Shown in pieces: positions 3,101 to 45,379 of a DNA stretch of 64,000 nt. The position numbers and the translations under genes were made by a program. Position 1 is the first letter of the stretch, and each line of letters starts with the position of its first letter. The stretch covers positions 11,808,001-11,872,000 of the forward strand of contig CP086569.2 of assembly GCA_009914755.4 (NCBI GenBank), written 5' to 3'. Below the pieces are notes generated by a model that was not told where the DNA came from, ran no database searches, and was given only the letters and a program-made list of their open reading frames with translations. The DNA is from the human T2T-CHM13v2.0 reference genome, Homo sapiens.

Positions 3101-3175
3101 GGATGGGCCCAAAAGTAATAGACTCAAATAAAAGGGACTCAAAGAGAATGAAGTGGAAAGAAACGGTCTCGAATG
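3101..3175. other. Conserved diverged island containing the GGGCCC (ApaI) site. It occurs once per HOR and is a useful physical landmark.
   Basis: ggatgggcccaaaagtaatagactcaaataaaagggactcaaagagaatgaagtggaaagaaacggtctcgaatg. GGGCCC was seen once per HOR copy, for example at 3105, about 8715, about 14325 and about 31797. Confidence 0.75.
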
Positions 3176-4280: not shown

Positions 4281-4310
4281 GAAAGGAATGGCCTCGAGCG
4301 GAATTTATTT
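4281..4310. other. Conserved island with GGCC plus the CTCGAG (XhoI) site and the haplotype-diagnostic CpG variant cgagCGg versus cgagTGg.
   Basis: Copies 1-7 read aatggcctcgagcggaatttatttg. Copies 8-11 read aatggcctcgagtggaatttatttg, for example at 44091-44110. Confidence 0.75.
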
Positions 4311-22433: not shown

Positions 22434-25400
22434 GTATGGAATGGACTGCCATAGAACGGACTGCAGTGTAATGGATTGAATTCTAATTCATTCAAATGGA
22501 ATGGAATTGAATGGAATGGAATCCAATGGAATGGATAGGATTGTACTGGAATGGAATAGCATGGAATGCAACGGAGTGGAATGGAGTTGAATGAAGTGGA
22601 ATGGAATCGATTGGAATGGAATCAAATGGAATGGACGGGAATGGAATGGACTGGAAGAGAACAGACTCGAATTTAATGGATTGCAATGTAATTGATTCAA
22701 AGGGAATGGAATCGAATGGAATGTAATAAAATTGAAGGGATTTGAGTTCAATGCAATGGAATAGAATGGAATGCAAAGGAAAGGAAAGGTACGGAGTGAA
22801 ATCGAGTGTAATGGAATCGAATGGAATGAAATGGAATGGAATGGACTCAAAAGAAATGGACGAGGGACAAAACGGAATCGAACTGATTGGAATCGAACGG
22901 AACGGAATGGAATGGAATGGTCTCCATTGGATCGGAGTAGAACGGACTGGAATGGAATGGAATGAAATGGAATGGAAAGGAATAGAATGGAATGGAATGG
23001 AATGGAATGGAATGGAAGGTAATGGAAAGATATCGAACGGATTGGAAAGGAATGGAATGGACCCTAATGGAATGGAATGGAATTCAACAGAAACGAATGG
23101 AATGGACTGGAGTGAAATGGAGTCGAATGTAATTGACTGGAGTGAAATGGACTCGAAAGGAATGGACTCGAATAGAATGGACTGGAATGGATTGTACTCG
23201 AATGGAGTGGAAAGGAATAAAATGGATTGCACCAGATTGGAATGGAACAGAATGTAATGGAATGGAATGGAATGCAATGGAATGGCTCCAATGGAATGGA
23301 GTCGAATGCAATGGAACAGAAAGGAAAGGAATTGAATGGAATTGAAAGTAATAGAACAAAATGGAGTGCAAAGGAAAGATATTGAATGGAATGAATCGAA
23401 AAGAAATCGAATGGAATGGACAAGAATGGAATGGAATAGAATGGAATAGACTGGCGTGCAATGAAAACGAATGGAATGGAAACGAATTTAATGCAATGGA
23501 AAGGAATGGAGTAGAATAAATACTATGGAATGGAATGGAGGCGAAAGGAAAAGAATGGATTGGAATGTCACCGAATGGAAAGATATGGAATGGAAAGGAA
23601 TGGATACGAATGGAATGGAATAGAAAGGAACGGAAAGGTAAAGAATGGAATGGAATCGGATAGAATGGAATGCAATGTAATGGAGTCGAATGGAAAATAA
23701 TCGTGTAGAATGATATCGAATGGAATGGAATGGAATGGAATGGACTCGAATGGAATGTACTCAAATGGATTAGAATAGAATGGAATGGAACTAAACGTAA
23801 TGAACTCGAATGGAATGGACACAAATAGAATGGAAGAGAAAGGAATGGTATTGAATGGAATTTATTCGAATAGAGTGGAATTCAATGGAATGCAACAGTG
23901 TGGCATGGAATCAAATGGAATGGAATCGAATGGAATGGACCCGAGTGGAATGGACTCACATAGAACAGCCTCGAATGTAATGGATGACAATGTATTAGAT
24001 TCGAAAGGACTGAAATCGAATGGAATGTAATCAAGTAGAACGGAATTGAATGCATGGAATGGCATAGAAAGTAACGCAATGGAATGGAATAGACTGGAAT
24101 GGAATGGAATCGGATGGAATGTAATGAAATGTAATGGAAGGAATGCCATGGAATGGAATGGAATGGAATGCAATGGGACGGTGTATAATGGAGTGCAATG
24201 GATTTCAGTGGAATGTAGTCAAAAGGAAAGAAAGAGAATGGAATTCAATATAATGGAATGGCATCCAATGGCAAGGAATGGAGCGGACTCCAATGGAAAC
24301 GACATGAAAGGAATATAATAAAATGGAATGGCATTGAACGAAATGGAATGTAATGGAGTTAAAAGGTAAAATATCGAATGGAAAAGAATTGAATGGACTC
24401 GAAAGGAATATAATGGAATGGAATGGACTCGAATGGAATGTACTAGAGTTGAATGGAATCGAATGGAATGGAAAACAATGGAAAGGAAAGGAAGGGAATT
24501 GAAAGGAAAGGAATAGAATGGAATGGAATCGGATGGAACGGAATTGAATGGAATGGAAACTAAAGGAATAGAATAGAAAGGAATCGCATTGAATGGAATG
24601 GAATAGAATGGAATCAGATGGAACAGAAAGGAATGGAATAGAATCGAATGGAATGGCATCGAATGGATGGAATGAAATGTAATGGAATGGAATAGAAAGG
24701 AATGGAATGGACTCGAATGGAATGTACTCAAATGGAATAGAATAGAATGGAATGGAAGTAAATATAATGGACTCGAATAGAATGCATTGGAATAAATTGG
24801 AATTGAGTGTATTGGATTCGAATGGAAAGGAATGGAATGGAATGGAATGGAATGGAATGGAATGGAATGGATTCGAATGGAATGGAATCGAATGGAATGG
24901 AACGAATTGGAATGTAATTGAATGGAGTCAAAAACAGTAGAAAGAAATAAAGTTTCATCGAAAGATATCGAATGGAATTGAATGGAATGTACGCGAATGG
25001 AATGGACTGTAATGGAATGGAGTGACATGTAACGGAATCGAAAGGAATGGAATCCAATGAAATGGAATTGAATGGAATAGAAATGAATAGAATGGAATGG
25101 AGATTAACGGAAAGATATTAAAATAATGGAATGGAATTGAGTGGACACGAATGGAATGGACTGGAATGGAAAGGACTCAAATGAAAACGAGCGCATTAGA
25201 ATGGACTCGAATGGAATGGATTGGAGTGGAATGGTCTCGAATGGATTGGAAAGGAATGGAATGGAAAGGAATAGAATGGAATGTAATCAAATGGAACGAA
25301 ATGGAATGGAATGGATTCGACTGGAGCAGAATTGAATGGAGTGGATTTGAATGGAATGGAATGCAATCGAATGGAATGGACACGAATCGAATAGAATGAA

Positions 25401-28040
25401 ATGAAATGGCATAGAATGGAATGGAATGGAATGGAATGGAATGGAATGGAATGGAACGGAATTGAATGTCATGGAATGGAATGGCATGGCATGGAATGGA
25501 ATGGAATGGAATGGAATGAAATGGATTGGAATGGGATGGGCCCAAAAGTAATAGACTCAAATAAAAGGGACTCAAAGAGAATGAAGTGGAAAGAAACGGT
25601 CTCGAATGTAATTTATTCGAATAGAATGATATTGAATGGAATGCAATAGTATGGAATGGTATCGAATAGAATGGAATAGAATGGAATGGAATGGAACGGA
25701 ATGGAGTGCAATTGAACGGACTCAAATGCAATAAATTGCAATATAATTGATTCAAATGGAATGGAATCGAATAGAATGTAAACAAATGGAATGGAAGGCA
25801 ATGCAATGGAAAGGAATCGAATGAAATGGAATAAATGGAATGGAATGGAATGGAAAGGACGCGAATATATTGGACTGTTAAGGAAAGGTGTCAAATCGAA
25901 TTTATTCCAATAGAATGGAATCGAATGGAATGCAATACTATTGAATCGAATCGAATGGAATGGAATTGAATGGAATGGACAGGAATGGAATGAACTGGAA
26001 GTGAATGGACAGGAACGTAATATATTGCAATGTAATTTATTCAAATGGAATGGAATGCAATCGAATGGAATGGACTCGATTGGAATGGACTGGAGTGGAA
26101 TGGATTCAAATGGAATGGCAAGGAATGGAATGGAATGGAATGGAAAGCAAAGGAATCTACTGGAATAGAATCGAACGGAACAGAAAGGAATGGAATGGAA
26201 TGGAGTGGAATGGACTCGAATGGAATGTATTCGAATGTAATGGACCTAAAAAGGAATGGAATCCAATGGAATGGAATTGAATGGAATCAAAAGGAATAGA
26301 AAGGCATCGAGTGTAATTGAATGATATCGAAAGGAAGGGAATGGAATGAACTCGAATGGAATGCACTGGAATGGAATGGACTCGATCAGAACGGACTGGA
26401 GAGGAATGTACACAAATGGAATGGAAACGAATGGAATGGAATGAAATGGAATGGAATGAAATGGAATTGAAAGGAAGGGAATCAAATGGAATGGAATGGA
26501 ATGGATTGGAATAGAATGGATTCAAATAAAATAGAATCGATGGGAATGGTATTGAATGAAAGGGACTTGAATGGAATGGAAAGCAATGGAAGATATTGGA
26601 ATCGAATGGCATCGAATGAAATGGAATGGAACGGAATGGAACGGAACCGAATGGAATGGAATGGACTCAAATGTAATGGACACCAATGGAATCGACTGAA
26701 ATATAATAGTGTCGAAAGGAATGGCCTCGAGCGGAATTTATTTGAATAGAATGGAATCAAATGGAATACAATACCATTGAATGGAATCGAATGGAATGGA
26801 ATCGAATGGAATGGAATCAAATGGAATGGAACGGAATTCAATATAATGGAGTAGAATGGAATGCATTGGAAAGGAGCAGAGTGGAATCAAGTGGAATGGA
26901 ATCGAGTGGAATGGAATCGAGTGGAATGGAATCAATGGGAACAAAATCGAATTGAATGGACTTGAATGGAATTGACTCGAAAGGAATTGACTCGAAAGGA
27001 ATGGACTGGAACAAAAAGGAATCAAATGGACAGGAATGGGATGGAATGGACACGAATGGAATGGAGTCAAATGCAAACGCATCGAATGGAATGGATTGAA
27101 ATGGAATGCAATGGAATGGAACAGAAAGGAAGAGAATGGAATTGAGAGTAATGGAAAGATATCGATTGGAATGAAATGGAATGGAAATGCATTGAATGGA
27201 AAGGAATGGAGTGGAAAGAAATGGATTGGAATGGAATGGTCTCCAATGGAATGGACTGGAGTGGAATGGAATCGAATGGAATGAAAAGAATGGAACGGAA
27301 TGGAACGGAAAGGAATAGAATGTTATGGAATCCGATTGGACAGAATGGAATGGAATGGACTTTCATGAAATGGAGTCGAATAGAGTGTCATCAAAAGGAA
27401 TGGAATGGAATGGAGTGGACTCAAAAGGAATGGACTCGAAAGGAATGGAGTCCAACCAAATTGAATCAAATGGATTGGAGTCGAACAGAATGGAATGGAA
27501 TGAAATGTACTCGACTGGAGTAGAGAGGAATGTAAAGGAATAGAATGGAATGTAATCAAATGGATTGCAAGTGAATGGAATCAAAAATAATAGAAAGGAA
27601 TGGAGTGTAAAGGGATGATATTGAATATAATGGAATGGAATGGAATTTAATGGAATGGAGACGAAGGAATGGACAGGAATGTAATGGACTCCAATGGAAT
27701 GGAATGGATCAAAATGGATTTGAACAGATTGGAATCGAACGGAATGGAATGCAACGGCATGGAATGGACTCGAATGGAGAAGAGACAAATGGAATGGAAA
27801 CGAATTCAATGGAATTGAAAAGAATAGGATGGAATGGCGTGTAATGGTAAGATACTAAATGGAATGGAATTGAATGGAATGGAATGGACCCAAATGTAAT
27901 GCACTCGAAAGGAATATACTCAAATAGAACGGAATCGAAAGGAAAGGTCTCAAATGGAATTTATTCAATACAATGGAATCGAATGGAATGCAATAGAATG
28001 GAATGGAATCGAATGTAATGGAATCAAATAGAATGGACCA
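22434..28040. repeat. HOR copy 5, 5607 bp, B-like with private variants (variant C).
   Basis: It carries the B-type markers MHSIPFHS and QKERKRMEF. New variants appear, for example MTGVKWTRKEW at 23133, where other copies have MTGVEWTRKEW, and the 246-aa ORF at 23084..23824. A CpG is gained at actcGaatgg at about 23197, where copies 1-4 read actcAaatgg. Confidence 0.8.
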
Positions 28041-31000
28041 GTATGGAATGGACTGCCATAGAACGGACTGCAGTGTAATGGATTGAATTCTAATTCATTC
28101 AAATGGAATGGAATTGAATGGAATGGAATCCAATGGAATGGATAGGATTGTACTGGAATGGAATAGCATGGAATGCAACGGAGTGGAATGGAGTTGAATG
28201 AAGTGGAATGGAATCGATTGGAATGGAATCAAATGGAATGGACGGGAATGGAATGGACTGGAAGAGAACAGACTCGAATTTAATGGATTGCAATGTAATT
28301 GATTCAAAGGGAATGGAATCGAATGGAATGTAATAAAATTGAAGGGATTTGAGTTCAATGCAATGGAATAGAATGGAATGCAAAGGAAAGGAAAGGTACG
28401 GAGTGAAATCGAGTGTAATGGAATCGAATGGAATGAAATGGAATGGAATGGACTCAAAAGAAATGGACGAGGGACAAAACGGAATCGAACTGATTGGAAT
28501 CGAACGGAACGGAATGGAATGGAATGGTCTCCATTGGATCGGAGTAGAACGGACTGGAATGGAATGGAATGAAATGGAATGGAAAGGAATAGAATGGAAT
28601 GGAATGGAATGGAATGGAATGGAAGGTAATGGAAAGATATCGAACGGATTGGAAAGGAATGGAATGGACCCTAATGGAATGGAATGGAATTCAACAGAAA
28701 CGAATGGAATGGACTGGAGTGCAATGGAGTCGAATGTAATTGACTGGAGTGAAATGGACTCGAAAGGAATGGACTCGAATAGAATGGACTGGAATGGATT
28801 GTACTCGAATGGAGTGGAAAGGAATAAAATGGATTGCACCAGATTGGAATGGAACAGAATGTAATGGAATGGAATGGAATGCAATGGAATGGCTCCAATG
28901 GAATGGAGTCGAATGCAATGGAACAGAAAGGAAAGGAATTGAATGGAATTGAAAGTAATAGAACAAAATGGAGTGCAAAGGAAAGATATTGAATGGAATG
29001 AATCGAAAAGAAATCGAATGGAATGGACAAGAATGGAATGGAATAGAATGGAATAGACTGGCGTGCAATGAAAACGAATGGAATGGAAACGAATTTAATG
29101 CAATGGAAAGGAATGGAGTAGAATAAATACTATGGAATGGAATGGAGGCGAAAGGAAAAGAATGGATTGGAATGTCACCGAATGGAAAGATATGGAATGG
29201 AAAGGAATGGATACGAATGGAATGGAATAGAAAGGAACGGAAAGGTAAAGAATGGAATGGAATCGGATAGAATGGAATGCAATGTAATGGAGTCGAATGG
29301 AAAATAATCGTGTAGAATGATATCGAATGGAATGGAATGGAATGGAATGGACTCGAATGGAATGTACTCAAATGGATTAGAATAGAATGGAATGGAACTA
29401 AACGTAATGAACTCGAATGGAATGGACACAAATAGAATGGAAGAGAAAGGAATGGTATTGAATGGAATTTATTCGAATAGAGTGGAATTCAATGGAATGC
29501 AACAGTGTGGCATGGAATCAAATGGAATGGAATCGAATGGAATGGACCCGAGTGGAATGGACTCACATAGAACAGCCTCGAATGTAATGGATGACAATGT
29601 ATTAGATTCGAAAGGACTGAAATCGAATGGAATGTAATCAAGTAGAACGGAATTGAATGCATGGAATGGCATAGAAAGTAACGCAATGGAATGGAATAGA
29701 CTGGAATGGAATGGAATCGGATGGAATGTAATGAAATGTAATGGAAGGAATGCCATGGAATGGAATGGAATGGAATGCAATGGGACGGTGTATAATGGAG
29801 TGCAATGGATTTCAGTGGAATGTAGTCAAAAGGAAAGAAAGAGAATGGAATTCAATATAATGGAATGGCATCCAATGGCAAGGAATGGAGCGGACTCCAA
29901 TGGAAACGACATGAAAGGAATATAATAAAATGGAATGGTATTGAACGAAATGGAATGTAATGGAGTTAAAAGGTAAAATATCGAATGGAAAAGAATTGAA
30001 TGGACTCGAAAGGAATATAATGGAATGGAATGGACTCGAATGGAATGTACTAGAGTTGAATGGAATCGAATGGAATGGAAAACAATGGAAAGGAAAGGAA
30101 GGGAATTGAAAGGAAAGGAATAGAATGGAATGGAATCGGATGGAACGGAATTGAATGGAATGGAAACTAAAGGAATAGAATAGAAAGGAATCGCATTGAA
30201 TGGAATGGAATAGAATGGAATCAGATGGAACAGAAAGGAATGGAATAGAATCGAATGGAATGGCATCGAATGGATGGAATGAAATGGAATGGAATAGAAA
30301 GGAATGGAATGGACTCGAATGGAACGTACTCAAATGGAATAGAATAGAATGGAATGGAAGTAAATATAATGGACTCGAATGGAATGCATTGGAATAAATT
30401 GGAATTGAGTGTATTGGATTCGAATGGAAACGAATGGAATGGAATGGAATGGAATGGAATGGAATGGAATGGATTCGAATGGAATGGAATCGAATGGAAT
30501 GGAACGAATTTGAATGTAATTGAATGGAGTCAAAAACAGTAGAAATAAATAAAGATTCATCGAATGATATCGAATGGAATTGAATGGAATGTACGCGAAT
30601 GGAATGGACTGGAATGGAATGGAGTGACATGTAACGGAATCGAAAGGAATGGAATCCAATGAAATGGAATTGAATGGAATAGAAATGAATAGAATGGAAT
30701 GGAGATTAATGGAAAGATATTAAAATAATGGAATGGAATTGAGTGGACACGAATGGAATGGACTGGAATGGAAAGGACTCGAATGAAATGCAGTGCATTA
30801 GAATGGACTCGAATGGAATGGATTGGAGTGGAATGGTCTCGAATGGATTAGAAAGGAATGGAATGGAAAGGAATAGAATGGAATGTAATCAAATGGAACG
30901 AAATGGAATGGAATGGATTCGACTGGAGCAGAATTGAATGGAGTGGAATTGAATGGAATGGAATGCAATCGAATGGAATGGACACGAATCAAATAGAATG

Positions 31001-34000
31001 AAATGAAATTGCAAAGAATGGAATGGAATGGAATGGAATGGCATGGAATGGAATGTAACGGAATGGAATGGCATGGAATGGAATGGCATGGCATGGAATG
31101 GAATGGAATGGAATGGAATGGAATGGAATGGATTCGAATGGAATGGAATCGAATGGAATGGAACGAATTGGAATGTAATTGAATGGAGTCAAAAACAGTA
31201 GAAAGAAATAAAGTTTCATCGAATGATATCGAATGGAATTGAATGGAATGTACGCGAATGGAATGGACTGGAATGGAATGGAGTGACATGTAACGGAATC
31301 GAAAGGAATGGAATCCAATGAAATGGAATTGAATGGAATAGAAATGAATAGAATGGAATGGAGATTAATGGAAAGATATTAAAATAATGGAATGGAATTG
31401 AGTGGACACGAATGGAATGGACTGGAATGGAAAGGACTCGAATGAAATGGAGCGCATTAGAATGGACTCGAATGGAATGGATTGGAGTGGAATGGTCTCG
31501 AATGGATTGGAAAGGAATGGAATGGAAAGGAATAGAATGGAATGTAATCAAATGGAACGAAATGGAATGGAATGGATTCGACTGGAGCAGAATTGAATGG
31601 AGTGGAATTGAATGGAATGGAATGCAATCGAATGGAATGGACACGAATCGAATAGAATGAACTGAAATGGCATAGAATGGAATGGAATGGAATGGAATGG
31701 AATGGAATGGAATGGAATGGAATGGAATGGCATGGAATGGAATGGAATGGCATGGCATGGCATGGAATGGAATGGAATGAAATGGATTGGAATGAGATGG
31801 GCCCAAGAGTAATAGACTCAAATAAAAGGGACTCAAATAGAATGAAGTGGAAAGAAACGGTCTCGAATGTAATTTATTCGAATAGAATGATATTGAATGG
31901 AATGCAATAGTATGGAATGGTATCGAATAGAATGGAATGGAATGGAACGGAATGGAACGGAATGGAGTGCAATTGAACGGACTCAAATGCAATAAATTGC
32001 AATATAATTGATTCAAATGGAATGGAATCGAATAGAATGTAAACAAATGGAATGGAAGGCAATGCAATGGAAAGGAATCGAATGAAGTGGAATAAATGGA
32101 ATGGAATGGAATGGAAAGGACGCGAATATATTGGACTGTTAAGGGAAGGTGTCAAATCGAATTAATTCCAATAGAATGGAATCGAATGGAATGCAATACT
32201 ATTGAATCGAATCGAATGGAATGGAATTGAATGGAATGGACAGGAATGGAATGAACCGGAAGTGAATGGACAGGAACGTAATATATTGCAATGTAATTTA
32301 TTCAAATGGAATGGAATGCAATCGAATGGAATGGACTGGAGTGGAATGGACTCAAATGGAATGGCAAGGAATGTAATGGAATGGAATGGAAAGCAAAGGA
32401 ATCTACTGGAATAGAATCGAACGGAACAGAAAGGAATGGAATGGAATGGAGTGGAATGGACTCGAATGGAATGTATTCGAATGTAATGGACCTAAAAAGG
32501 AATGGAATCCAATGGAATGGAATTGAATGGAATCAAAAGGAATAGAAAGGAATAGAGTGTAATTGAATGATATCGAAAGGAAGGGAATGGAATGAACTCG
32601 AATGCAATGCACTGGAATGGAATGGACTCGATCAGAACGGACTGGAGAGGAATGTACACAAATGGAATGGAAACGAATGGAATGGAATGAAATGGAATGG
32701 AATGAAATGGAATTGAAAGGAACGGAATCAAATGGAATGGAATGGAATGGAATGGATTGGAATAGAATGGATTCAAATAAAATAGAATCGATGGGAATGG
32801 TATTGAATGAAAGGGACTTGAATGGAATGGAAAGCAATGGAAGATATTGGAATCGAATGGCATCGAATGAAATGGAATGGAACGGAATGGAACGGAACCG
32901 AATGGAATGGAATGGACTCAAATGTGATGGACACCAATGGAATCGACTGAAATATAATAGTGTCGAAAGGAATGGCCTCGAGCGGAATTTATTTGAATAG
33001 AATGGAATCAAATGGAATACAACACCATTGAATGGAATCGAATGGAATGGAATGGAATGGAATGGAATCAAATGGAATGGAACGGAATTCAATATAATGG
33101 AGTAGAATGGAATGCATTAGAAAGGAGCAGAGTGGAATCAAGAGGAATGGAATCGAGTGGAATGGAATCAATGGGAACAAAATCGAATTGAATGGACTTG
33201 AATGGAATTGAATCGAAAGGAATGGACTGGAACAAAAAGGAATCAAATGGACAGGAATGGGATGGAATGGACACGAACGGAATGGAGTCAAATGCAAACG
33301 CATCGAATGGAATGGATTGAAATGGAATGCAATGGAATGGAACAGAAAGGAAGAGAATGGAATTCAGAGTAATGGAAAGATATCGATTGGAATGAAATGG
33401 AATGGAAAGGAATTGAATGGAAAGGAATGGAGTGGAAAGAAATGGATTGGAAAGGAATGGTCTCCAATGGAATGGACTAGAGTGGAATGGAATCGAATGG
33501 AATGAAAAGAATGGAACGGAATGGAACGGAAAGGAATAGAATGTTATGGAATCCGATTGGACAGAATGGAATGGAATGGAGTTTCATGAAATGGAGTCGA
33601 ATAGAGTGGCATCAAAAGGAATGGAATGGAATGGAGTGGACTCAAAAGGAATGGACTCGAAAGGAATGGAGTCGAACCAAACTGATTCAAATGGATTGAA
33701 GTCGAACAGAATGGAATGGAATGGAATGAACTCGACTGGAGTAGAGAGGAATGTAAAGGAATAGAATGGAATGTAATCAAATGGATTGCAAGTGAATGGA
33801 ATCAAAAATAATAGAAAGGAATGGAGTGTAAAGGGATGATATTGAATATAATGGAATGGAATGGAATTTAATGGAATGGAGACGAAGGAATGGACAGGAA
33901 TGTAATGGACTCCAATGGAATGGAATGGATCAAAATGGATTTGAACAGATTGGAATCGAACGGAATGGAATGCAATGGAATGGAATGGACTCGAATGGAG

Positions 34001-34261
34001 AAGAGACAAATGGAATGGAAACGAATTCAATGGAATTGAAAAGAATAGGATGGAATGGCGTGTAATGGTAAGATACTAAATGGAATGGAATTGAATGGAA
34101 TGTAATGGACCCAAATTTAATGCACTCGAAAGGAATATACTCAAATAGAATGGAATCGAAAGGAAAGGTCTCAAATGGAATTTATTCAATACAATGGAAT
34201 CGAATGGAATGCAATAGAATGGAATGGAATCGAATATAATGGAATCAAATAGAATGGACCA
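28041..34261. repeat. HOR copy 6, 6221 bp, C-like in its 5' part and resembling the downstream haplotype in its 3' part. It contains a 660-bp internal duplication.
   Basis: The 5' part matches copy 5 (246-aa ORF at 28691..29431). From about 30.4 kb onward it shares variants with copies 7-12: NEMERIR rather than NENERIR at 31402..31596, ARNVMEW at 32202..32414, and the CpG gain ggaaCGtact at about 30322. The extra length comes from the duplication listed separately. Confidence 0.8.
30471..31790. repeat. Internal tandem duplication inside HOR copy 6. Copy 1 is about 30471-31130 and copy 2 about 31131-31790, that is 2 x about 660 bp.
   Basis: The string attcgaatggaatggaatcgaatggaatggaacgaatt...gtcaaaaacagtagaaa...tacgcgaatggaatggactggaatggaatggagtgacatgtaacgg...taaaataatggaatggaattgagtggacacgaatgg occurs at 30471 and again at 31131. 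The track shows the MDTNGMDWNGKDSNE... ORF twice, at 30743 and 31402, 659 bp apart. Both breakpoints sit in pure (GGAATGG)n runs at 30431-30470 and 31091-31130. Confidence 0.85.
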
Positions 34262-37200
34262 GAATGGAATGGACTGCCATAGAACGGACTGCAGTGTAAT
34301 GGATTGAATTCTAAATCATTCAAATGGAATGGAATTGAATGGAATGGAATCCAATGGAATGGATAGGATTGTACTGGAATGGAATAGCATGGAATGCAAC
34401 GGAGTGGAATGGAGTTGAATGAAGTGGCATGGAATCGATTGGAATGGAATCAAATGGAATGGACGGGAATGGAATGGACTGGAAGAGAACAGACTGGAAT
34501 TTAATGGATTGCACTGTAATTGATTCAAATGGAATGGAATCGAATGGAATGTAATAAAATTGAAGGGATTTGAGTTCAATGCAATGGAATAGAATGGAAT
34601 GCAAAGGAAAGGAAAGGTACGGAGTGAAATCGAGTGTAATGGAATCGAATGGAATGAAATGGAATGGAATGGACACAAAAGAAATGGACGAGGGACAAAA
34701 CGGAATCGAACTGATTGGAATCGAACGGAACGGAATGGAATGGAATGGTCTCCATTGGATCAGAGTAGAACGGACTGGAATGGAATGGAATGAAATGGAA
34801 TGGAAAGGAATAGAATGGAATGGAATGGAATGGAATGGAATGGAATGGAAGGTAATGGAAAGATATTGAACCGATTGGAAAGGAATGGAATGGACTCTAA
34901 TGGAATGGAATGGAATTCAACAGAAACGAATGGAATGGACTGGAGTGAAATGGAGTCGAATGTAATTGACTGGAGTGGAATGGACTCGAAAGGAATGGAC
35001 TCGAATAGAATGGACTGGAATGGATTGTACTCGATGGAGTGAAAAGGAATAAAATGGATTCCACCAGATTGGAATGGAACAGAATGTAATGGAATGGAAT
35101 GGAATGCAATGGAATAGCTCCAATGGAATGGAGTCGAATGTAATGGAACAGAAAGGAAAGGAAGTGAATGGAATTGAAAGGAATAGAACAAAATGGAGTG
35201 CAAAGGAAAGATATCGAATGGAATGGATCGAAAAGAAATCGAATGGAATGGACAGGAATGGAATGGAATAGAATGGAATAGACTGGCGTGCAATGAAAAC
35301 GAATGGAATGGAAACGAATGGAATGCAATGGAAAGGAATGGAGTAGAATAAATACTATGGAATGGAATGGAGGCGAAAGGAAAAGAATGGATTGGAATGT
35401 CACCGAATGGAAAGATATGGAATGGAAAGGAATGGATACGAATGGAATGGAATAGAAAGGAACGGAAAGGTAAAGAATGGAATGGAATCAGATAGAATGG
35501 AATGCAATGTAATGGAGTCGAATGGAAAATAATCGTGTAGAATGATATCGAATGGAATGGAATTGAATGGAATGGAATGGAATGGACTCGAATGGAATGT
35601 ACTCAAATGGATTAGAATAGAATGGAATGGAACTAAACGTAATGAACTCGAATGGAATGGACACAAATAGAATGGAAGAGAAAGGAATGGTATTGAATGG
35701 AATTTATTCGAATAGAGTGGAATTCAATGGAATGCAACAGTGTGGCATGGAATCAAATGGAATGGAATCGAATGGAATGGACCCGAGTGGAATGGACTCA
35801 CATAGAACAGCCTCGAATGTAATGGATGACAATGTATTAGATTCGAAAGGACTGAAATCGAATGGAATGTAATCAAGTAGAACGGAATTGAATGCATGGA
35901 ATGGCATAGAAAGTAACGCAATGGAATGGAATAGACTGGAATGGAATGGAATCGGATGGAATGTAATGAAATGTAATGGAAGGAATGCCATGGAATGGAA
36001 TGGAATGGAATGCAATGGGACGGTGTATAATGGAGTGCAATGGATTTCAGTGGAATGTAGTCAAAAGGAAAGAAATAGAATGGAATTCAATATAATGGAA
36101 TGGCATCCAATGGCAAGGAATGGAGCGGACTCCAATGGAAACGACATGAAAGGAATATAATATAATGGAATGGCATTGAACGAAATGGAATGCAATGGAG
36201 TTAAAAGGTAAAATATCGAATGGAAAAGAATTGAATGGACTCGAAAGGAATATAATGGAATGGAATGGACTCGAATGGAATGTACTAGAGTTGAATGGAA
36301 TCGAATGGAATGGAAAACAATGGAAAGGAAAGGAAGGGAATTGAAAGGAAAGGAATAGAATGGAATGGAATCGGATGGAACGGAATTGAATGGAATGGAA
36401 ACTAAAGGAATAGAATAGAAAGGAATCGCATTGAATGGAATGGAATGGAATGGAATCAGATGGAACGGAAAGGAATGGAATAGAATCGAATGGAATGGCA
36501 TCGAATGGATGGAATGGAATGTAATGGAATGGAATAGAAAGGAATGGAATGGACTCGAATGGAATGTACTCAAATGGAATAGAGTAGAATGGAATGGAAG
36601 TAAATATAATGGACTCGAATGGAATGCATTGGAATAAATTGGAATTGAGTGTATTGGATTCGAATGGAAAGGAATGGAATGGAATGGAATGGAAAGGAAT
36701 GGAATGGAATGGATTCGAATGGAATGGAATCGAATGGAATGGAACGAATTGGAATGTAATTGAATGGAATCAAAAACAGTAGAAAGAAATAAAGTTTCAT
36801 CGAATGATATCGAATGGAATTGAATGGAATGTACGCGAATGGAATGGATTGGAATGGAATGGAGTGACATGTAACGGAATCGAAAGGAATGGAATCCAAT
36901 GAAATGGAATTGAATGGAATAGAAATGAATAGAATGGAATGGAGATTAATGGAAAGATATTAAAATAATGGAATGGAATTGAGTGGACACGAATGGAATG
37001 GACTGGAATGGAAAGGACTCGAATGAAATGGAGCGCATTAGAATGGACTCGAATGGAATGGATTGGAGTGGAATGGTCTCGAATGGATTTGAAAGGAATG
37101 GAATGGAAAGGAATAGAATGGAATGTAATCAAATGGAACGAAATGGAATGGAATGGATTCGACTGGAGCAGAATTGAATGGAGTGGAATTGAATGGAATG

Positions 37201-39814
37201 GAATGCAATCGAATGGAATGGACACGAATCGAATAGAATGAAATGAAATGGCATAGAATGGAATGGAATGGAATGGAATGGAATGGAATGGAATGGAATG
37301 GCATGGAATGGAATGACATGGCATGGAATGGAATAGAATGAAATGGATTGGAATGTGATGGGCCCAAAAGTAATAGACTCAAATAAAAGGGACTCAAATA
37401 GAATGAACTGGAAAGAAACGGTCTCGAATGTAATTTATTCGAATAGAATGATATTGAATGGAATGCAACAGTATGGAATGGTATCGAATAGAATGGAATA
37501 GAATGGAATGGAATGGAACGGAATGGAGTGCAATTGAACGGACTCAAATGCAATAAATTGCAATATAATTCATTCAAATAGAACGGAATCGAATAGAATG
37601 TAAACAAATGGAATGGAAGGCAATGCAATGGAAAGGAATCGAATGAAATGGAATAAATGGAATGGAATGGAATGGAAAGGACGCGAATATATTGGACTGT
37701 TAAGGAAAGGTGTCAAATCGACTTTATTCCAATAGAATGGAATCGAATGGAATGCAATACTATTGAATCGAATCGAATGGAATGGAATTGAATGGAATGG
37801 ACAGGAATGGAATGAATTGGAAGTGAATGGACAGGAACGTAATATATTGCAAAGTAATTTATTCAAATGGAATGGAATGCAATCGAATGGAATGGACTCG
37901 ATTGGAATGGACTGGAGTGGAATGGACTCAAATGGAATGGCAAGGAATGTAATGGAATGGAATGGAAAACAAAGGAATCTACTGGAATAGAATCGAACGG
38001 AACAGAAAGGAATGGAATGGAATGGAGTGGAATGGACTCGAATGGAATGTATTCGAATGTAATGGACCTAAAAAGGAATGGAATCCAATGGAATGGAATT
38101 GAATGGAATCAAAAGGAATAGAAAGGAATAGAGTGTAATTGAATATCGAAAGGAAGGGAATGGAATGAACTCGAATGGAATGCGCTGGAATGGAATGGAC
38201 TCGATCAGAACGGACTGGATAGGAATGTCCACAAATGGAATGAAAACGAATGGAATGGAATGAAATGGAATTGAAAGGAACGGAATCAAATGGAATGGAA
38301 TGGAATGGAATGGATTGGAATAGAATGGATACAAATAAAATAGAATCGATGGGAATGGTATTGAATGAAAGGGACTTGAATGGAATGGAAAGCAATGGAA
38401 GATATTGGAATCGAATGGCATCCAATGAAATGGAATGGAACGGAATCGAATGGAATGGAATGGACTCAAATGTAATGGACACCAATGGATTCGACTGAAA
38501 TATAATAGTGTCGAAAGGAATGGCCTCGAGCGGAATTTATTTGAATAGAATGGAATAAAATGGAATACAATACCATTGAATGGAATCGAATGGAATGGAA
38601 TCGAATGGAATGTAATCAAATGGAATGGAACGGAATTCAATACAATGGAGTAGAATGGAATGCATTGGAAAGGAGCAGAGTGGAATCAAGTGGAATGGAA
38701 TCGAGTGGAATGGAATCAATGGGAACAAAATCAAATTGAATGGACTTGAATGGAATTGACTCGAAAGGAATGGTCTGGAAAAAAAAGGAATCAAATGGAC
38801 AGGAATGGGATGGAATGGACATGAATGGAATGGAGTAAAATGCAAACGCATCGAATGGAATGGATTGAAATGGAATGCAATGGAATGGAACAGAAAGGAA
38901 GAGAATGGAATTGAGAGTAATGGAAAGATATCGATTGGAATGAAATGGAATGGAAAGGAATTGAATGGAAAGGAATGGAGTGGAAAGAAATGGATTGGAA
39001 TGGAATGGTCTCCAATGGAATGGACTGGAGTGGAATGGAAACGAATGGAATGAAAAGAATGGAACGGAATGGAACGGAAAGGAATAGAATGTTATGGAAT
39101 CCGATTGGACAGAATGGAATGGAATGGAGTTTCATGAAATGGAGTCGAATAGAGTGGCATCAAAAGGAATGGAATGGAATGGAGTGGACTCAAAAGGAAT
39201 GGACTCGAAAGGAATGGAGTCCAACAAAACTGATTCAAATGGATTGAAGTCGAACAGAATGGAATGGAATGGAATGGAATGAACTCGACTGGAGTAGAGA
39301 GGAATGTAAAGGAATAGAATGGAATGTAATCAAATGGATTGCAAGTGAATGGAATCAAAAATAATAGAAAGGAATGGAGTGTAAAGGGATGATATTGAAT
39401 ATAATGGAATGGAATGGAATTTAATGGAATGGAGACGAAGGAATGGACAGGAATGTAATGGACTCCAATGGAATGGAATGGATCAAAATGGATTTGAACA
39501 GATTGGAATCGAACGGAATGGAATGCAATGGAATGGAATGGACTCGAATGGAGAAGAGACAAATGGAATGGAAACGAATTCAATGGAATTGAAAAGAATA
39601 GGATGGAATGGCGTGTAATGGTAAGATACTAAGTGGAATGGAATTGAATGGAATGTAATGGACCCAAATGTAATGCACTCGAAAGGAATATACTCAAATA
39701 GAATGGAATCGAAAGGAAAGGTCTCAAATGGAATTTATTCAATACAATGGAATCGAATGGAATGCAATAGAATGGAATGGAATCGAATGTAATGGAATCA
39801 AATAGAATGGACCA
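34262..39814. repeat. HOR copy 7, 5553 bp, first copy of the second domain. It is its own variant, related to D and E.
   Basis: The anchor reads accagaatggaatggactgcc...ttctaaatcattc, differing from accagtatgg...ttctaattcattc in domain 1. The ATAAT seed is ataatataat at about 36147-36160, that is 2 perfect copies. Confidence 0.8.
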
Positions 39815-42800
39815 GAATGGAATGGACTGCCATAGAACGGACTGCAGTGTAATGGATTGAATTCTAATTCATTCAAATGGAATGGAATTGAATGGAATGG
39901 AATCCAATGGAATGGATAGGATTGTACTGGAATGGAATAGCATGGAATGCAACGGAGTGGAATGGAGTTGAATGAAGTGGAATGGAATCGATTGGAATGG
40001 AATCAAATGGAATGGACGGGAATGGAATGGACTGGAAGAGAACAGACTGGAATTTAATGGATTGCACTGTAATTGATTCAAATGGAATGGAATCGAATGG
40101 AATGTAATAAAATTGAAGGGATTTGAGTTCAATGCAATGGAATAGAATGGAATGCAAAGGAAAGGAAAGGTACGGAGTGAAATCGAGTGTAATGGAATCG
40201 AATGGAATGAAATGGAATGGAATGGACTCAAAAGAAATGGACGAGGGACAAAACGGAATCGAACTGATTGGAATCGAACGGAACGGAATGGAATGGAATG
40301 GTCTCCATTGGATCGGAGTAGAACGGACTGGAATGGAATGGAATGAAATGGAATGGAAAGGAATAGAATGGAATGGAATGGAATGGAATGGAATGGAAGG
40401 TAATGGAAAGATATCGAACGGATTGGAAAGGAATGGAATGCACCCTAATGGAATGGAATGGAATTCAACAGAAACGAATGGAATGGACTGGAGTGAAATG
40501 GAGTCGAATGTAATTGACTGGAGTGGAATGGACTCGAAAGGAATGGACTCGAATAGAATGGACTGGAATGGATTGTACTCGAATGGAGTGGAATGGAATA
40601 AAATGGATTCCACCAGATTGGAATGGAACAGAATGTAATGGAATGGAATGGAATGCAACGGAATAGCTCCAATGGAATGGAGTCGAATGCAATGGAACAG
40701 AAAGGAAAGGAATTGAATGGAATTGAAAGGAATAGAACAAAATGGAGTGCAAAGGAAAGATATCGAATGGAATGGATCGAAAAGAAATCGAATGGAATGG
40801 ACAGGAATGGAATGGAATAGAATGGAATAGACTGGCGTGCAATGAAAACGAATGGAATGGAAACGAATGGAATGCAATGGAAAGGAATGGAGTAGAATAA
40901 ATACTATGGAATGGAATGGAGGCGAAAGGAAAAGAATGGATTGGAATGTCACCGAATGGAAAGATATGGAATGGAAAGGAATGGATACGAATGGAATGGA
41001 ATAGAAAGGAACGGAAAGGTAAAGAATGGAATGGAATCGGATAGAATGGAATGCAATGTAATGGAGTCGAATGGAAAATAATCGTGTAGAATGATATCGA
41101 ATGGAATGGAATTGAATGGAATGGAATGGAATGGACTCGAATGGAATGTACTCAAATGGATTAGAATAGAATGGAATGGAATTAAACGTAATGAACTCGA
41201 ATGGAATGGACACAATTAGAATGGAAGAGAAAGGAATGGTATTGAATGGAATTTATTCGAATAGAGTGGAATTGAATGGAATGCAACAGTGTGGCATGGA
41301 ATCAAATGGAATGGAATCGAATGGAATGGACCCGAGTGGAATGGACTCACATAGAACAGCCTCGAATGTAATGGATGACAATGTATTAGATTCGAAAGGA
41401 CTGAAATCGAATGGAATGTAATCAAGTAGAACGGAATTGAATGCATGGAATGGCATGGAAAGTAACGCAATGGAATGGAATAGACTGGAATGGAATGGAA
41501 TCGGATGGAATGTAATGAAATGTAATGGAAGGAATGCCATGGAATGGAATGGAATGGAATGCAATGGGACGGTGTATAATGGAGTGCAATGGATTTCAGT
41601 GGAATGTAGTCAAAAGGAAAGAAATAGAATGGAATTCAATATAATGGAATGGCATCCAATGGCAAGGAATGGAGCGGACTCCAATGGAAACGACATGAAA
41701 GGAATATAATATAATGGAATGGCATTGAACGAAATGGAACGCAATGGAGTTAAAAGGTAAAATATCGAATGGAAAAGAATTGAATGGACTCGAAAGGAAT
41801 ATAATGGAATGGAATGGACTCGAATGGAATGTACTAGAGTTGAATGGAATCGAATGGAATGGAAAACAATGGAAAGGAAAGGAAAGGAATTGAAAGGAAA
41901 GGAATAGAATGGAATGGAATCGGATGGAACGGAATTGAATGGAATGGAAACTACAGGAATAGAATAGAAAGGAATCGCATTGAATGGAATGGAATGGAAT
42001 GGAATCAGATGGAACAGAAAGGAATGGAATAGAATCGAATGGAATGGCATCGAATGGATGGAATGGAATGGAATGGAATGGAATAGAAAGGAATGGAATG
42101 GACTCGAATGGAATGTACTCAAATGGAATAGAATAGAATGGAATGGAAGTAAATATAATGGACTCGAATGGAATGCATTGGAATAAATTGGAATTGAGTG
42201 TATTGGATTCGAATGGAAAGGAATGGAATGGAATGGAATGGAATGGAATGGAATGGAATGGATTCGAATGGAATGGAATCGAATGGAATGGAACGAATTG
42301 GAATGTAATTGAATGGAGTCAAAAACAGTAGAAAAAAATAAAGTTTCATCGAATGATATCGAATGGAATTGAATAGAATGTACGCGAATGGAATGGACTG
42401 GAATGGAATGGAGTGACATGTAACGGAATCGAAAGGAATGGAATCCAATGAAATGGAATTGAATGGAATAGAAATGAATAGAATGGAATGGAGATTAATG
42501 GAAAGATATTAAAATAATGGAATGGAATTGAGTGGACACGAATGGAATGGACTGGAATGGAAAGGACTCGAATGAAATGGAGCGCATTAGCATGGACTCG
42601 AATGGAATGGATTGGAGTGGAATGGTCTCGAATGGATTGGAATGGAATGGAATGGAAAGGAATAGAATGGAATGTAATCAAATGGAACGAAATGGAATGG
42701 AATGGATTCGACTGGAGCAGAATTGAATGGAGTGCAATTGAATGGAATGGAATGCAATCGAATGGAATGGACACGAATCGAATAGAATGAAATGAAATGG

Positions 42801-45379
42801 CATAGAATGGAATGGAATGGAATGGAATGGAATGGAATGGAATGGAATGGCATGGAATGGAATGACATGGCATGGCATGGCATGGAATGGAATGGAATGA
42901 AATGGATTGCAATGAGATGGGCCCAAAAGTAATAGACTCAAATAAAAAGGACTCAAATAGAATGAACTGGAAAGAAACGGTCTCGAATGTAATTTATTCG
43001 AATAGAATGATATTGAATGGAATGCAACAGTATGGAATGTTATCGAATAGAATGGAATAGAATGGAAGGGAATGGAACGGAATGGAGTGCAATTGAACGG
43101 ACTCAAATGCAATAAATTGCAATATAATTGATTCAAATGGAATGGAATCGAATAGAATGTAAACAAATGGAATGGAAGGCAATGCAATGGAAAGGATTCG
43201 AATGAAATGGAATAAATGGAATGGAATGGAATGGAAAGGACGCGAATATATTGGACTGTTAAGGAAAGGTGTCAAATCGAATTTATTCCAATAGAATGGA
43301 ATCGAATGGAATGCAATACTATTGAATCGAATCGAATGGAATGGAATTGAATGGAATGGACAGGAATTGGAATGAACTGGAAGTGAATGGACAGGAACGT
43401 AATATATTGCAATGTAATTTATTCAAATGGAATGGAATGCAATCGAATGGAATGGACTCGATTGGAATGGACTGGATTGGAATGGACTCAAATGGAATGA
43501 CAACGAATGTAATGGAATGGAATGGAAAGCAAAGGAATCTACTGGAATAGAATCGAACGGAACAGAAAGGAATGGAATGGAACGGAGTGGAATGGACTCG
43601 AATGGAATGTATTCGAATGTAATGGACCTAAAAAGGAATGGAATCCAATGGAATGGAATTGAATGGAATCAAAAGGAATAGAAAGGAATAGAGTGTAATT
43701 GAATATCGAAAGGAAGGGAATGGAATGAACTCGAATGGAATGCACTGGAATGAAATGGACTCGATGAGAACGGACTGGAGAGGAATGTACACAAAAGGAA
43801 TGGAAACGAATGGAATGGAATGAAATGGAATTGAAAGGAACGGAATCAAATGGAATGGAATGGAATGGAATGGATGGGAATAGGAGGGATTCAAATAAAA
43901 TAGAATCGATGGGAATGGTATTGAATGAAAGGGACTTGAATGGAATGCAAAGCAATGGAAGATATTGGAATCGAATGGCATCGAATGAAATGGAATGGAA
44001 CGGAATGGAACGGAACCGAATGGAATGGAATGGACTCAAATGTAATGGACACCAATGGAATCGACTGAAATATAATAGTGTCGAAAGGAATGGCCTCGAG
44101 TGGAATTTATTTGAATAGAATGGAATCAAATGGAATACAATACCATTGAATGGAATCGAATGGAATGGAATCGAATGGAATGTAATCAAATGGAATGGAA
44201 CGGAATTCAATATAAAGGAGTAGAATGGAATGCATTGGAAAGGAGCAGAGTGGAATCAAGTGGAATGGAATCGAGTGGAATGAAATCAATGGGAACAAAA
44301 TCGAATTGAATGGACTTGAATGGAATTGACTCGAAAGGAATGGACTGGAACAAAAAGGAATCAAATGGACAGGAATGGGATGGAATGGACCCGAATGGAA
44401 TGGAGTCAAATGCAAACGCATCGAATGGAATGGATTGAAATGGAATGCAATGGAATGGAACAGAAAGGAAGAGAATGGAATTGAGAGTAATGGAAAGATA
44501 TCGATTGGAATGAAATGGAATGGAAAGGAATTGAATGGAAAGGAATGGAGTGGAAAGAAATGGATTGGAATGGAATGGTCTCCAATGGAATGGACTGGAG
44601 TGGAATGGAATCGAATGGAATGAAAAGAATGGAACGGAATGGAACGGAAAGGAATAGAATGTTATGGAATCCGATTGGACAGAATGGAATGGAATGGAGT
44701 TTCATGAAATGGAGTCGAATAGAGTGGCATCAAAAGGAATGGAATGGAATGGAGTGGACTCAAAAGGAATGGACTCGAAAGGAATGGAGTCGAACCAAAC
44801 TGATTCAAATGGATTGAAGTCGAACAGAATGGAATGGAATGGAATGAACTCGACTGGAGTAGAGAGGAATGTAAAGGAATAGAATGGAATGTAATCAAAT
44901 GGATTGCAAGTGAATGGAATCAAAAATAATAGAAAGGAATGGAGTGTAAAGGGATGATATTGAATATAATGGAATGGAATGGAATTTAATGGAATGGAGA
45001 CGAAGGAATGGACAGGAATGTAATGGACTCCAATGGAATGGAATGGATCAAAATGGATTTGAACAGATTGGAATCGAACGGAATGGAATGCAATGGAATG
45101 GAATGGACTCGAATGGAGAAGAGACAAATGGAATGGAAACGAATTCAATGGAATTGAAAAGAATAGGATGGAATGGCGTGTAATGGTAAGATACTAAGTG
45201 GAATGGAATTGAATGGAATGTAATGGACCCAAATGTAATGCACTCGAAAGGAATATACTCAAATAGAATGGAATCGAAAGGAAAGGTCTCAAATGGAATT
45301 TATTCAATACAATGGAATCGAATGGAATGCAATAGAATGGAATGGAATCGAATGTAATGGAATCAAATAGAATGGACCA
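39815..45379. repeat. HOR copy 8, 5565 bp, variant D.
   Basis: The 446-aa minus ORF at 39873..41213 is a D marker, shared with 51018..52358 and 62098..63438. There is no ATAAT expansion at 41707-41716: the sequence is ataatataat followed by ggaatggcattgaacg. Confidence 0.85.

What the first reader, a model, noticed from the sequence alone, without database searches (positions are those of the whole stretch)
28041..39814. Switch between two locally homogenised HOR haplotype domains
Upstream of about 30 kb all copies share one variant set: anchor accagtatgg...ttctaattcattc, cgagcgg, NENER, and ataataaaat at the ATAAT seed. Downstream they share another: accagaatgg or accagattgg, ttctaaatcattc, cgagtgg from copy 8 onward, NEMER, and ataatataat. 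Copy 6 is a hybrid, 5' like copy 5 and 3' like copy 7. A hybrid copy is what an unequal-crossover or gene-conversion junction between two array haplotypes looks like. It gives a datable boundary in satellite evolution.
Basis: partly seen in the sequence, partly recalled or inferred. Interest (0 to 1): 0.6.

Follow-up and report, generated by a model that had tools for sequence, protein, structure and literature searches.

The report
Edge of a young satellite-repeat expansion
In this human-type (GGAAT)n satellite, copy 6 of a 5.6-kb repeat marks where a recently amplified block of near-identical copies ends against older, more varied copies, which is a real but ordinary feature of satellite arrays.

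Summary
The whole window is HSat3-like (GGAAT)n satellite arranged as a ~5.6-kb higher-order (nested tandem) repeat, 12 copies. Copies 1-5 are 0.04-0.45% apart. The first 2,246 bp of copy 6 (28037-30282) differ from copy 5 at 2 sites, and the rest differs at 53/3,165 (binomial P=1e-10). So there is a sharp switch at about 30283.

The interpretation needs correction in three ways.
- The 3' part of copy 6 is not like copy 7. It is 1.4-1.7% from every other copy, D1 included.
- Downstream is not one homogenised domain. Copy 7 is a singleton, and copies 8-11 are a duplicated 11.1-kb dimer of two types 1.3% apart.
- Outgroup contigs show that 28 of 35 "domain-defining" differences are derived in the upstream block, so the "downstream variant set" is mostly just the ancestral state.

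Copy 6 also carries an extra 659 bp (30434-31092), joined out of register between two pure (GGAAT)n runs.

Best reading: this is the right-hand edge of a recent local amplification by unequal exchange, abutting old array sequence. The kind is known and interest is low.

The parts
1..30282 (+). Young amplified block 'D1': copies 1-5 plus the first 2,246 bp of copy 6. It is at least 5.4 units and runs off the left end of the window. Internal order is X Y X Y Y Y(5'), where X = copies 1 and 3 and Y = copies 2, 4, 5 and 6-5'.
   Evidence: Pairwise divergence within the block is 0.04-0.45%. Copy 1 vs 3 and copy 2 vs 4 show 0 differences over most of their length. Of 35 fixed differences that could be polarised, 28 are derived in D1.
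28037..34257 (+). Copy 6, the boundary unit (6,221 bp). It is a composite of a D1-type 5' part, segment Z and segment W.
30283..30431 (+). Interval holding the switch from young D1 sequence to old sequence. The last D1-Y marker is at 30282. A one-pentamer (TAATG) deletion private to copy 6 abuts it at 30283, and private substitutions follow at 30325 and 30431.
   Evidence: There are 2 private substitutions in 2,246 bp upstream, against 2 substitutions plus 1 indel in the next 151 bp. The strict outer bound is 30565, the first non-D1 diagnostic site in S'.
30434..31092 (+). S', the extra 659 bp of copy 6 (first copy of the repeated segment). It carries the non-D1 state at all 5 diagnostic sites and has about 10 private substitutions.
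   Evidence: Identity at lag 659 is 46-50 of 50 per window. The list of differences is. The repeat finder gives 30559-30858 vs 31218-31517 at 99%.
31066..31132 (+). Out-of-register join. The GGCATGG...(GGAAT)n context of the run at unit position ~3062 is fused to the 40-bp pure (GGAAT)n run of unit position ~2400.
   Evidence: Sequence and run map. Identity at lag 659 extends 28 bp beyond one unit length.
31093..34257 (+). W, the old-type 3' part of copy 6, beginning with S'' (31093-31751). It is an independent lineage 1.4-1.7% from every other copy, with about 20 private substitutions and a private 15-bp deletion at 32327.
34258..39810 (+). Copy 7, a singleton old-type unit. It is 1.5-1.9% from all others and nearest type A in its first 2.4 kb. 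Its last ~550 bp are identical to copy 8.
39811..62035 (+). Second, independent recent duplication. It is an 11.1-kb two-unit repeat (copies 8+9 and copies 10+11), with types A and B 1.3% apart.
   Evidence: Copy 8 vs 10 differs by 0.26% and copy 9 vs 11 by 0.22%. K-mer spacings of 11080, 11075 and 11145 are seen.

Best explanation
Copy 6 marks the right-hand edge of a recent, hyper-local amplification of one derived variant (D1) of a 5.6-kb HSat3-like nested tandem repeat. The block grew by repeated unequal exchange, one or two units out of register, between near-identical units on sister chromatids or homologues.

The last such event is readable in the sequence. An exchange between copy 4 and what is now copy 6, with the crossover between unit columns 775 and 2300, produced copy 5.

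Sequence to the right of about 30283 is older array sequence that was never part of the block. It belongs to a set of old unit lineages (the copy 6 3' part, copy 7, type A, type B) that are 1.3-2% apart. These share 'non-D1' states mainly because those states are ancestral.

Just inside the old sequence, an earlier out-of-register join between two pure (GGAAT)n runs 659 bp apart in unit phase gave copy 6 its extra 659 bp. This most likely fused parts of two old units and deleted about 4.95 kb.

Shown: the block, the sharp switch, the polarity of the variants, the last duplication and the anatomy of the 659-bp join. Inferred: unequal exchange as the mechanism, and the order of events.
For: - Copies 1-5 differ by 0.04-0.45%, against 1.2-2.1% to everything else.
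- Copy 6 vs copy 5 shows 2 substitutions in 2,246 bp, then 53 in 3,165 bp; binomial P=1.2e-10.
- In neighbour-joining trees the copy 6 5' part nests beside copy 5, while the 3' part is a separate long branch.
- Twenty human-associated metagenome contigs (96-98% identical, equidistant from all copy types) were used as an outgroup. They make D1 the derived state at 28 of 35 fixed differences that could be polarised. Seven of those 28 belong to one misaligned indel cluster.
- Copy 4 3' and copy 5 3' have 0 differences. Copy 5 5' and copy 6 5' uniquely share 720A/775G (window 23145/23200 and 28752/28807). The copy 4/5 marker at column 2404 is absent from copy 6.
- A private one-pentamer deletion abuts the last D1 marker.
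- S' and S'' differ at 14 of 659 sites (2.1%), share no private variants, and their junction lies in pure (GGAAT)n runs.
- Contig L012 carries 3.4 kb that is 99.5-100% D1-type, including chunks specific to subtype X and to subtype Y. The D1 haplotype is therefore present in another human sample and is not an assembly quirk.
- The literature describes multi-kb HSat2,3 units 'evolving and expanding hyper-locally' (bioRxiv 10.1101/2021.07.12.452052).
Against: - The left edge of the block lies outside the window, so the amplicon model's main prediction (a mirror-image boundary at the same unit phase) is untested.
- The data cannot tell whether copy 6 is the original flank or an old unit whose 5' part was overwritten.
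- Five D1-like events sit inside the 3' part of copy 6: 31847, 31908, the 3-bp indel at 32567, the 15-bp indel at 32676, and 33065. The zone 31.8-33.1 kb also leans slightly towards D1, so the 3' part is itself a mosaic and some conversion is likely.
- D1-internal patterns conflict in columns 5319-5773, so simple duplication alone does not explain everything.
- The outgroup contigs are collapsed short-read assemblies of uncertain locus.
Confidence: 0.6

Rival explanations
1. Two locally homogenised array haplotypes meet here, and copy 6 is the recombinant unit produced by an unequal crossover between a domain-1 unit and a domain-2 unit.
For: There is a sharp 5'/3' split of the diagnostic sites in copy 6. 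Four derived states are shared by the copy 6 3' part and copies 7-11 (columns 3804, 5781, 5785, 5798). The last ~1.1 kb of copy 6 is closer to types A and B than to D1 (10-13 vs 16-21 substitutions).
Against: - The copy 6 3' part is 1.4-1.7% from every downstream copy, the same as from D1, and it carries about 20 private substitutions.
- The downstream copies are not homogenised, at 1.3-1.9% between copy 7, type A and type B.
- Most 'domain-2' states are ancestral.
- Copy 6's structure predates the last duplication.
Confidence: 0.15
2. In-register gene conversion. A D1 unit acted as donor and overwrote the first ~2.25 kb of a pre-existing old unit. The conversion tract ended at a pentamer-run heterology near 30283, with no change in copy number.
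For: The switch is in phase apart from a single-pentamer offset. Patchy discordant variant patterns elsewhere suggest that short conversion tracts do occur in this array: D1 columns 5319-5773, and the D1-like patches in the copy 6 3' part.
Against: Nothing distinguishes this from the amplicon-edge model inside the window. It needs an extra event, whereas the block edge must exist somewhere in any case. The copy 5/copy 6 sister relation is already explained by the last unequal exchange.
Confidence: 0.2
3. Assembly artefact. A false join or a collapse in a near-identical satellite created the apparent boundary and the 659-bp extra segment.
For: Satellite arrays with >99.5% identical 5.6-kb units are hard to assemble. 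No read data could be checked here. No copy-6 junction k-mers were found in the 20 external contigs.
Against: D1-type sequence is independently present in another sample. S' carries about 10 private substitutions spread over 659 bp, which a mis-join of existing copies would not create. The unit phase is continuous across 30283.
Confidence: 0.05

Closest known systems
HSat2,3 nested tandem repeats (NTRs) with hyper-local expansion (Altemose et al., 'Complete genomic and epigenetic maps of human centromeres', bioRxiv 10.1101/2021.07.12.452052)
   Same: It is a multi-kb unit derived from the (CATTC/GGAAT)n pentamer. Periodicity and variant content change locally along the array (5.6-kb vs 11.1-kb units here). 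Recent local duplications are present.
   Different: This particular 5.6-kb unit and this junction are not described in the text I could read. The subfamily and chromosome of the window could not be assigned. The canonical HSat3 10-mer is absent.
Alpha-satellite HOR-haplotype layers ('layered expansion'), same paper
   Same: A block of units sharing derived variants, with lower internal divergence, is flanked by older and more divergent units.
   Different: This is not alpha satellite and has no discrete monomers. It has no known kinetochore link. Only one flank is visible, so symmetry cannot be judged.
Unequal-crossover model of tandem repeat evolution (Smith 1976; Kurnit 1979; both cited in PMC4022460)
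   Same: Out-of-register exchange between repeats generates duplication, homogenised blocks and composite units. The inferred copy 4 / copy 6 to copy 5 event fits the model exactly.
   Different: It is a model, not a locus. Gene-conversion patches are also needed to explain the discordant sites here.
DYZ1, the ~3.6-kb HSat3 NTR array of Yq12 (T2T-Y paper, bioRxiv 10.1101/2022.12.01.518724)
   Same: It is a pentamer-derived HSat3 NTR whose units are mostly >98% identical, with recent expansion events.
   Different: Its unit length is 3.6 kb, not 5.6 kb. There is no evidence that this window is Y-linked.

Membership tests
Human satellite 3 (HSat3) | Sequence built from diverged (CATTC)n / (GGAAT)n pentamers | tested here: met
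   TRF gives period 5/10/15 over 62-63973. The five GGAAT rotations are the top 5-mers.
Human satellite 3 (HSat3) | Interspersed classical satellite-3 10-mer CAACCCGA(A/G)T (feature recalled from memory of Prosser et al. 1986) | tested here: not met
   CAACCCGA has 0 occurrences in 64 kb. The window is therefore 'HSat3-like', and the subfamily is unassigned.
Human satellite 3 (HSat3) | Subfamily-specific 24-mers (Altemose 2014) and chromosomal assignment | not testable with these tools
   No human reference genome and no 24-mer table were available. The literature searches gave no 5.6-kb unit.
Human satellite 3 (HSat3) | Human origin | tested here: met
   An exact 26-mer found 20 contigs, two of which are titled human skin metagenome. 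They are 96-100% identical to the window in parts. The evidence is indirect, and a close ape relative is not excluded.
Nested tandem repeat / higher-order repeat | A multi-kb unit repeated head to tail with much higher unit-to-unit identity than pentamer-to-pentamer identity | tested here: met
   The k-mer spacing mode is 5607. There are 12 units that are 98-99.96% identical.
Locally expanded repeat-haplotype block (layered / hyper-local expansion) | Block units share derived variants and have lower internal divergence than the flank | tested here: met
   Internal divergence is 0.04-0.45% in the block vs 1.3-2% among the downstream lineages. D1 is derived at 28 of 35 sites.
Locally expanded repeat-haplotype block (layered / hyper-local expansion) | Older units on both flanks, with the block edges at the same unit phase | not testable with these tools
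   The block runs off the left end of the window.
   Copy 6 5' is 0.09% from copy 5 and is sister to it in the tree.
   The 3' part is 1.4-1.7% from every copy and forms a separate branch. Domain 2 is itself heterogeneous.

The most novel reading that the evidence does not exclude
The longest pure (GGAAT)n runs inside the unit act as preferred sites for out-of-register exchange, and so set where HSat3 repeat units are re-phased, fused and bounded. Here the 659-bp join sits exactly on two such runs, and the block edge lies about 150 bp from the longest run, with a one-pentamer slip. Copy 6 would then be the surviving parental flank of the expansion rather than a recombinant. Its private junctions (the pentamer deletion at 30283 and the join at 31093) would be a stable, polymorphic marker. 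With that marker the D1 expansion could be ordered and dated across human haplotypes.
Probability: 0.25. Interest if true: 0.35.

Novelty: already known. Interest (0 to 1): 0.2.

Why it matters
The window is a clean, base-level worked example of how a pentameric satellite array turns over. A derived unit variant was amplified locally, the last unequal exchange can still be reconstructed, and the block ends mid-unit against old, mutually divergent units. The result also corrects a tempting misreading. Shared 'non-block' variants are mostly ancestral and do not define a second homogenised domain, and the 'hybrid' unit may be a parent rather than a product. It adds no new kind of biology. Its practical use would be as a junction marker for comparing this array between human haplotypes.

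Tried and rejected
- The genome-contig scan with the 43-nt anchor gave 0 hits.
- The repeat finder on 29800-32300 was swamped by the pentamer background. Only one family showed the lag-659 pair.
- The MAFFT multiple alignment misplaced a 15-bp indel, creating 7 false 'fixed substitutions' at columns 4773-4792. This was found by eye and corrected with pairwise affine alignments.
- Maximum chi-square with single parents (copy 5 vs copy 7, 8 or 9) is confounded by the parents' private variants. For two of the three parent pairs it picks a second change point at about 33.3-33.4 kb. I relied instead on fixed or polarised sites and on pairwise densities.
- Model rejected: the 659-bp segment arose by a misaligned D1 x D2 crossover, with the first copy D1 and the second D2. 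Both copies carry the non-D1 state at all 5 diagnostic sites.
- Model rejected: a recent in-situ tandem duplication. S' and S'' are 2.1% diverged, the private variants are split about 10 vs 2, and none are shared.
- A search of the 20 external contigs for copy-6 junction 31-mers found only ancestral-combination k-mers at 32539-32584 and 33030-33071.
- Attempts to name the chromosome or subfamily from the literature failed.
- I first used the copy 4/5 marker at column 2404 to narrow the switch to 30283-30381. I withdrew this, because that marker is a copy-4 mutation passed on to copy 5 and says nothing about copy 6.
Full report
**What the window is.** Tandem Repeats Finder reports a single pentamer-based array over 62-63973 (AATGG/GGAAT). 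GC content (0.36-0.39) and strand skew are uniform throughout. Exact 24-mers recur most often at a spacing of 5,607 bp, with secondary peaks near 11.1-11.2 kb. So the window is (GGAAT)n satellite organised as a ~5.6-kb higher-order unit. Altemose et al. call such units 'nested tandem repeats' in HSat2,3 (bioRxiv 10.1101/2021.07.12.452052).

The classical satellite-3 10-mer CAACCCGA is absent, and so is the motif ATCATCGAATGG that I recalled as HSat2-like. I therefore call the window HSat3-like and leave the subfamily open. An exact 26-mer from the unit's non-pentameric anchor found 20 metagenome contigs, two of them titled human skin metagenome. They are 96-98% identical to the window and roughly equidistant from all unit types. 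This supports a human origin and provides an outgroup.

**Checking the observation.** Copy 6 is 28037-34257 (6,221 bp, about 614-726 bp longer than the other complete copies) and copy 7 is 34258-39810.

The markers are distributed as follows.
- ACCAGTATGG occurs at the starts of copies 2-6.
- ATAATAAAAT occurs in copies 1-6 and ATAATATAAT in copies 7-12.
- CGAGCGG occurs in copies 1-7 and CGAGTGG from copy 8 on.
- NENER occurs in copies 1-5 and NEMER in copies 6-11.
- TTCTAATTCATTC also occurs in copies 8 and 10, so it is not domain-specific.

A MAFFT alignment of the 12 copies gives these divergences.
- Copies 1-5 are 0.04-0.45% apart.
- Copy 8 vs 10 differs by 0.26% and copy 9 vs 11 by 0.22%.
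- Types A (copies 8, 10) and B (copies 9, 11) are 1.3% apart.
- Copy 7 is 1.5-1.9% from everything.
- Copy 6 is 1.2-1.8% from everything.

**Is copy 6 a two-block hybrid?** At sites fixed between copies 1-5 (D1) and copies 7-11, copy 6 is D1 at every site from 28042 to 30212, and mostly non-D1 from 31224 onward.
- Raw substitution counts: 16 D1-only and 0 D2-only sites in the 5' part, against 3 and 32 in the 3' part, Fisher P=1.4e-10.
- With clustered sites collapsed to events, before re-assigning the misaligned indel: 10/0 against 4/16, P=3e-5.
- One cluster (columns 4773-4804) proved to be a misaligned 15-bp indel. Copy 6 actually shares the long form with D1. My final hand-curated tally after that correction is 11/0 in the 5' part and 5/22 in the 3' part.
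- Pairwise affine alignments avoid this problem. Copy 6 vs copy 5 has 2 substitutions in 28037-30282 (2,246 bp) and 53 in 31093-34257 (3,165 bp), binomial P=1.2e-10.

The '3' like copy 7' half of the claim fails. The 3' part differs from copy 7 at 54 sites, from copy 5 at 53, and from copies 8-11 at 44-51. In a neighbour-joining tree of the 3' region copy 6 is its own long branch, whereas in the 5' tree it sits beside copy 5 at 0.09%. The 3' part is also internally mixed.
- 31093-31799 leans towards the downstream types.
- 31800-33139 leans slightly towards D1 (18 vs 26-31 substitutions).
- 33140-34257 leans towards the downstream types again.

**What the 'two variant sets' are.** The 29 well-aligned external pieces were used as an outgroup. 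D1 carries the derived state at 28 of the 35 fixed differences that could be polarised, and the downstream group at 7. Seven of the 28 belong to the misaligned cluster. Copy 6 has all 8 D1-derived states in its 5' part. In its 3' part it lacks 19 of 20 raw (12 of 13 after removing that cluster). It does share 4 of 5 states derived in the downstream group, so it has a weak affinity to them.

All 20 private substitutions of copy 6 that could be tested are derived. So 'domain 2' is essentially 'not D1'. It is a set of old lineages (the copy 6 3' part, copy 7, type A, type B) in a near-star tree that retain ancestral states. The only recent event among them is one duplication of the A+B pair (copies 8-9 giving copies 10-11).

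**Fine anatomy of the boundary.** The last marker that ties copy 6 to the D1 subgroup Y (copies 2, 4, 5) is the A at 30282 (column 2300). Directly after it, copy 6 lacks one pentamer (TAATG) that all other copies have. Private substitutions follow at 30325 and 30431. There are 2 private substitutions in the preceding 2,246 bp, against 2 substitutions plus 1 indel in the next 151 bp. I therefore place the switch in 30283-30431. The strict outer bound is 30565, the first non-D1 diagnostic site in S'.

Copy 6 then contains an extra 659 bp. The stretch 30434-31092 (S') repeats at lag 659 as 31093-31751 (S''). Several features argue against simple origins for this repeat.
- Both copies carry the non-D1 state at the five diagnostic sites. 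So this is not a D1 x D2 misaligned crossover.
- S' and S'' differ at 14 sites (2.1%). About 10 of these are private to S' and 2 to S'', and no private variant is shared.
- That pattern argues against a recent in-situ duplication. It favours a fusion of parts of two different old units.

The join lies in pure (GGAAT)n. The run context of unit position ~3062 is fused to the 40-43-bp run of unit position ~2400, one of the two longest pure runs in the unit, and identity extends 28 bp past one period. Copy 6 is thus three pieces: D1-type (28037-30282), Z (30283-31092) and W (31093-34257).

**How the block grew.** Within D1, copies 1 and 3 (type X) are identical over the first ~4.5 kb. Copies 2 and 4 (type Y) are likewise nearly identical, which indicates an 11.2-kb two-unit duplication.

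Three observations fix the most recent event.
- The 3' halves of copies 4 and 5 have 0 differences.
- The 5' parts of copies 5 and 6 alone share 720A/775G (window 23145/23200 and 28752/28807).
- The column-2404 A of copies 4 and 5 is absent from copy 6.

This is exactly what one unequal exchange between copy 4 and copy 6 would give, with the crossover between columns 775 and 2300, creating copy 5. It follows that copy 6 already had its D1-5'/old-3' structure before that event.

Iterating the model backwards gives a further possibility. If two old neighbours a and b exchange once, the product b5'+a3' can then amplify. The D1 unit would then be the recombinant, and copy 6 (= b) a parent. I cannot separate this from in-register conversion of a D1 tract onto an old unit with the window alone. 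A discordant patch in D1 (columns 5319-5773; window ~10183-10637 and ~15785-16239) and the D1-like patches in W show that some short conversion-like events also occur.

**Is the block real and shared?** Contig L012 (OOQC01000272.1) matches D1-type copies at 99.5-100% in 200-bp chunks over its positions 2001-5400. Some chunks match only type X and others only type Y. The D1 haplotype and its X/Y split are therefore present in another sample. That argues against an assembly or cell-line artefact for the block. It also implies, by inference, that the X/Y split predates the common ancestor of those two haplotypes. None of the 20 contigs carries the copy-6 junction k-mers, so whether the junction is polymorphic remains open.

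**Comparison with what is known.** Local blocks of near-identical units carrying derived variants are described genome-wide for alpha-satellite 'HOR-haplotypes' under the layered-expansion model. HSat2,3 nested repeats are reported to be 'evolving and expanding hyper-locally'. Yq12 HSat3 (DYZ1) shows recent expansion events. Unequal crossover as the engine goes back to Smith 1976, cited in PMC4022460. The present case is an instance of that known behaviour.

**Verdict.** Copy 6 is the right-hand boundary unit of a young local amplification that abuts old, heterogeneous array sequence. It also carries an older 659-bp out-of-register join at pure pentamer runs. The kind of feature is already known, and interest is low (0.2).

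Noticed in passing
window 1-22429 and 39811-62035: Both sides of the boundary contain two-unit (11.1-11.2 kb) duplications: copies 1+2 are near-identical to copies 3+4, and copies 8+9 to copies 10+11. The effective repeat period therefore alternates between about 5.6 and about 11.1 kb along the window.
   Followed up: partly
No other copy has it.
   Followed up: no
window 55641/55642: Copy 10 has a private 95-bp (19 pentamers) deletion relative to its near-twin copy 8. It must therefore have arisen after the 11.1-kb duplication.
   Followed up: no
window ~10183-10637 (copy 2) and ~15785-16239 (copy 3): Inside the young block the variant pattern changes from (copies 1, 3 | 2, 4, 5) to (copies 2, 3 | 1, 4, 5) over about 450 bp. 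This looks like a short gene-conversion patch or a second exchange point.
   Followed up: no
window 62036-64000: The partial copy 12 is itself a mosaic. It has the type-B anchor variants (ACCAGATTGG, TTCTAAATCATTC) but is almost identical to type A over unit positions ~1000-2000 (2 vs 20 differences).
   Followed up: partly
each unit start, e.g. window 28081-28100: The anchor holds a short stretch in the opposite pentamer orientation (GAATTCTAATTCATTC, i.e. CATTC-type) inside an otherwise GGAAT-strand array. It is a tiny strand switch conserved in all copies.
   Followed up: no
whole window: Nearly all indels between units are multiples of 5 bp and sit at pure (GGAAT)n runs, at unit positions ~556, ~1290, ~2400 and ~3693. 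The exceptions are a 3-bp indel at 32567 and the 659-bp segment.
   Followed up: partly
L001-L020 (metagenome contigs), especially L012 positions 2001-5400: Metagenome assemblies (two of the 20 contigs are titled human skin metagenome) contain collapsed or chimeric contigs of this human satellite unit. L012 is 99.5-100% identical to the young-block variant, while its ends are only about 76-80% identical to any part of the window.
   Followed up: partly
window 39258-39810 and homologous unit ends: The last ~550 bp of the unit is almost invariant among all non-D1 copies (0-3 differences between copy 7 and copies 6, 8-11), although the same copies differ by about 2% elsewhere. D1 differs from copy 7 at 8 positions there.
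   Followed up: no
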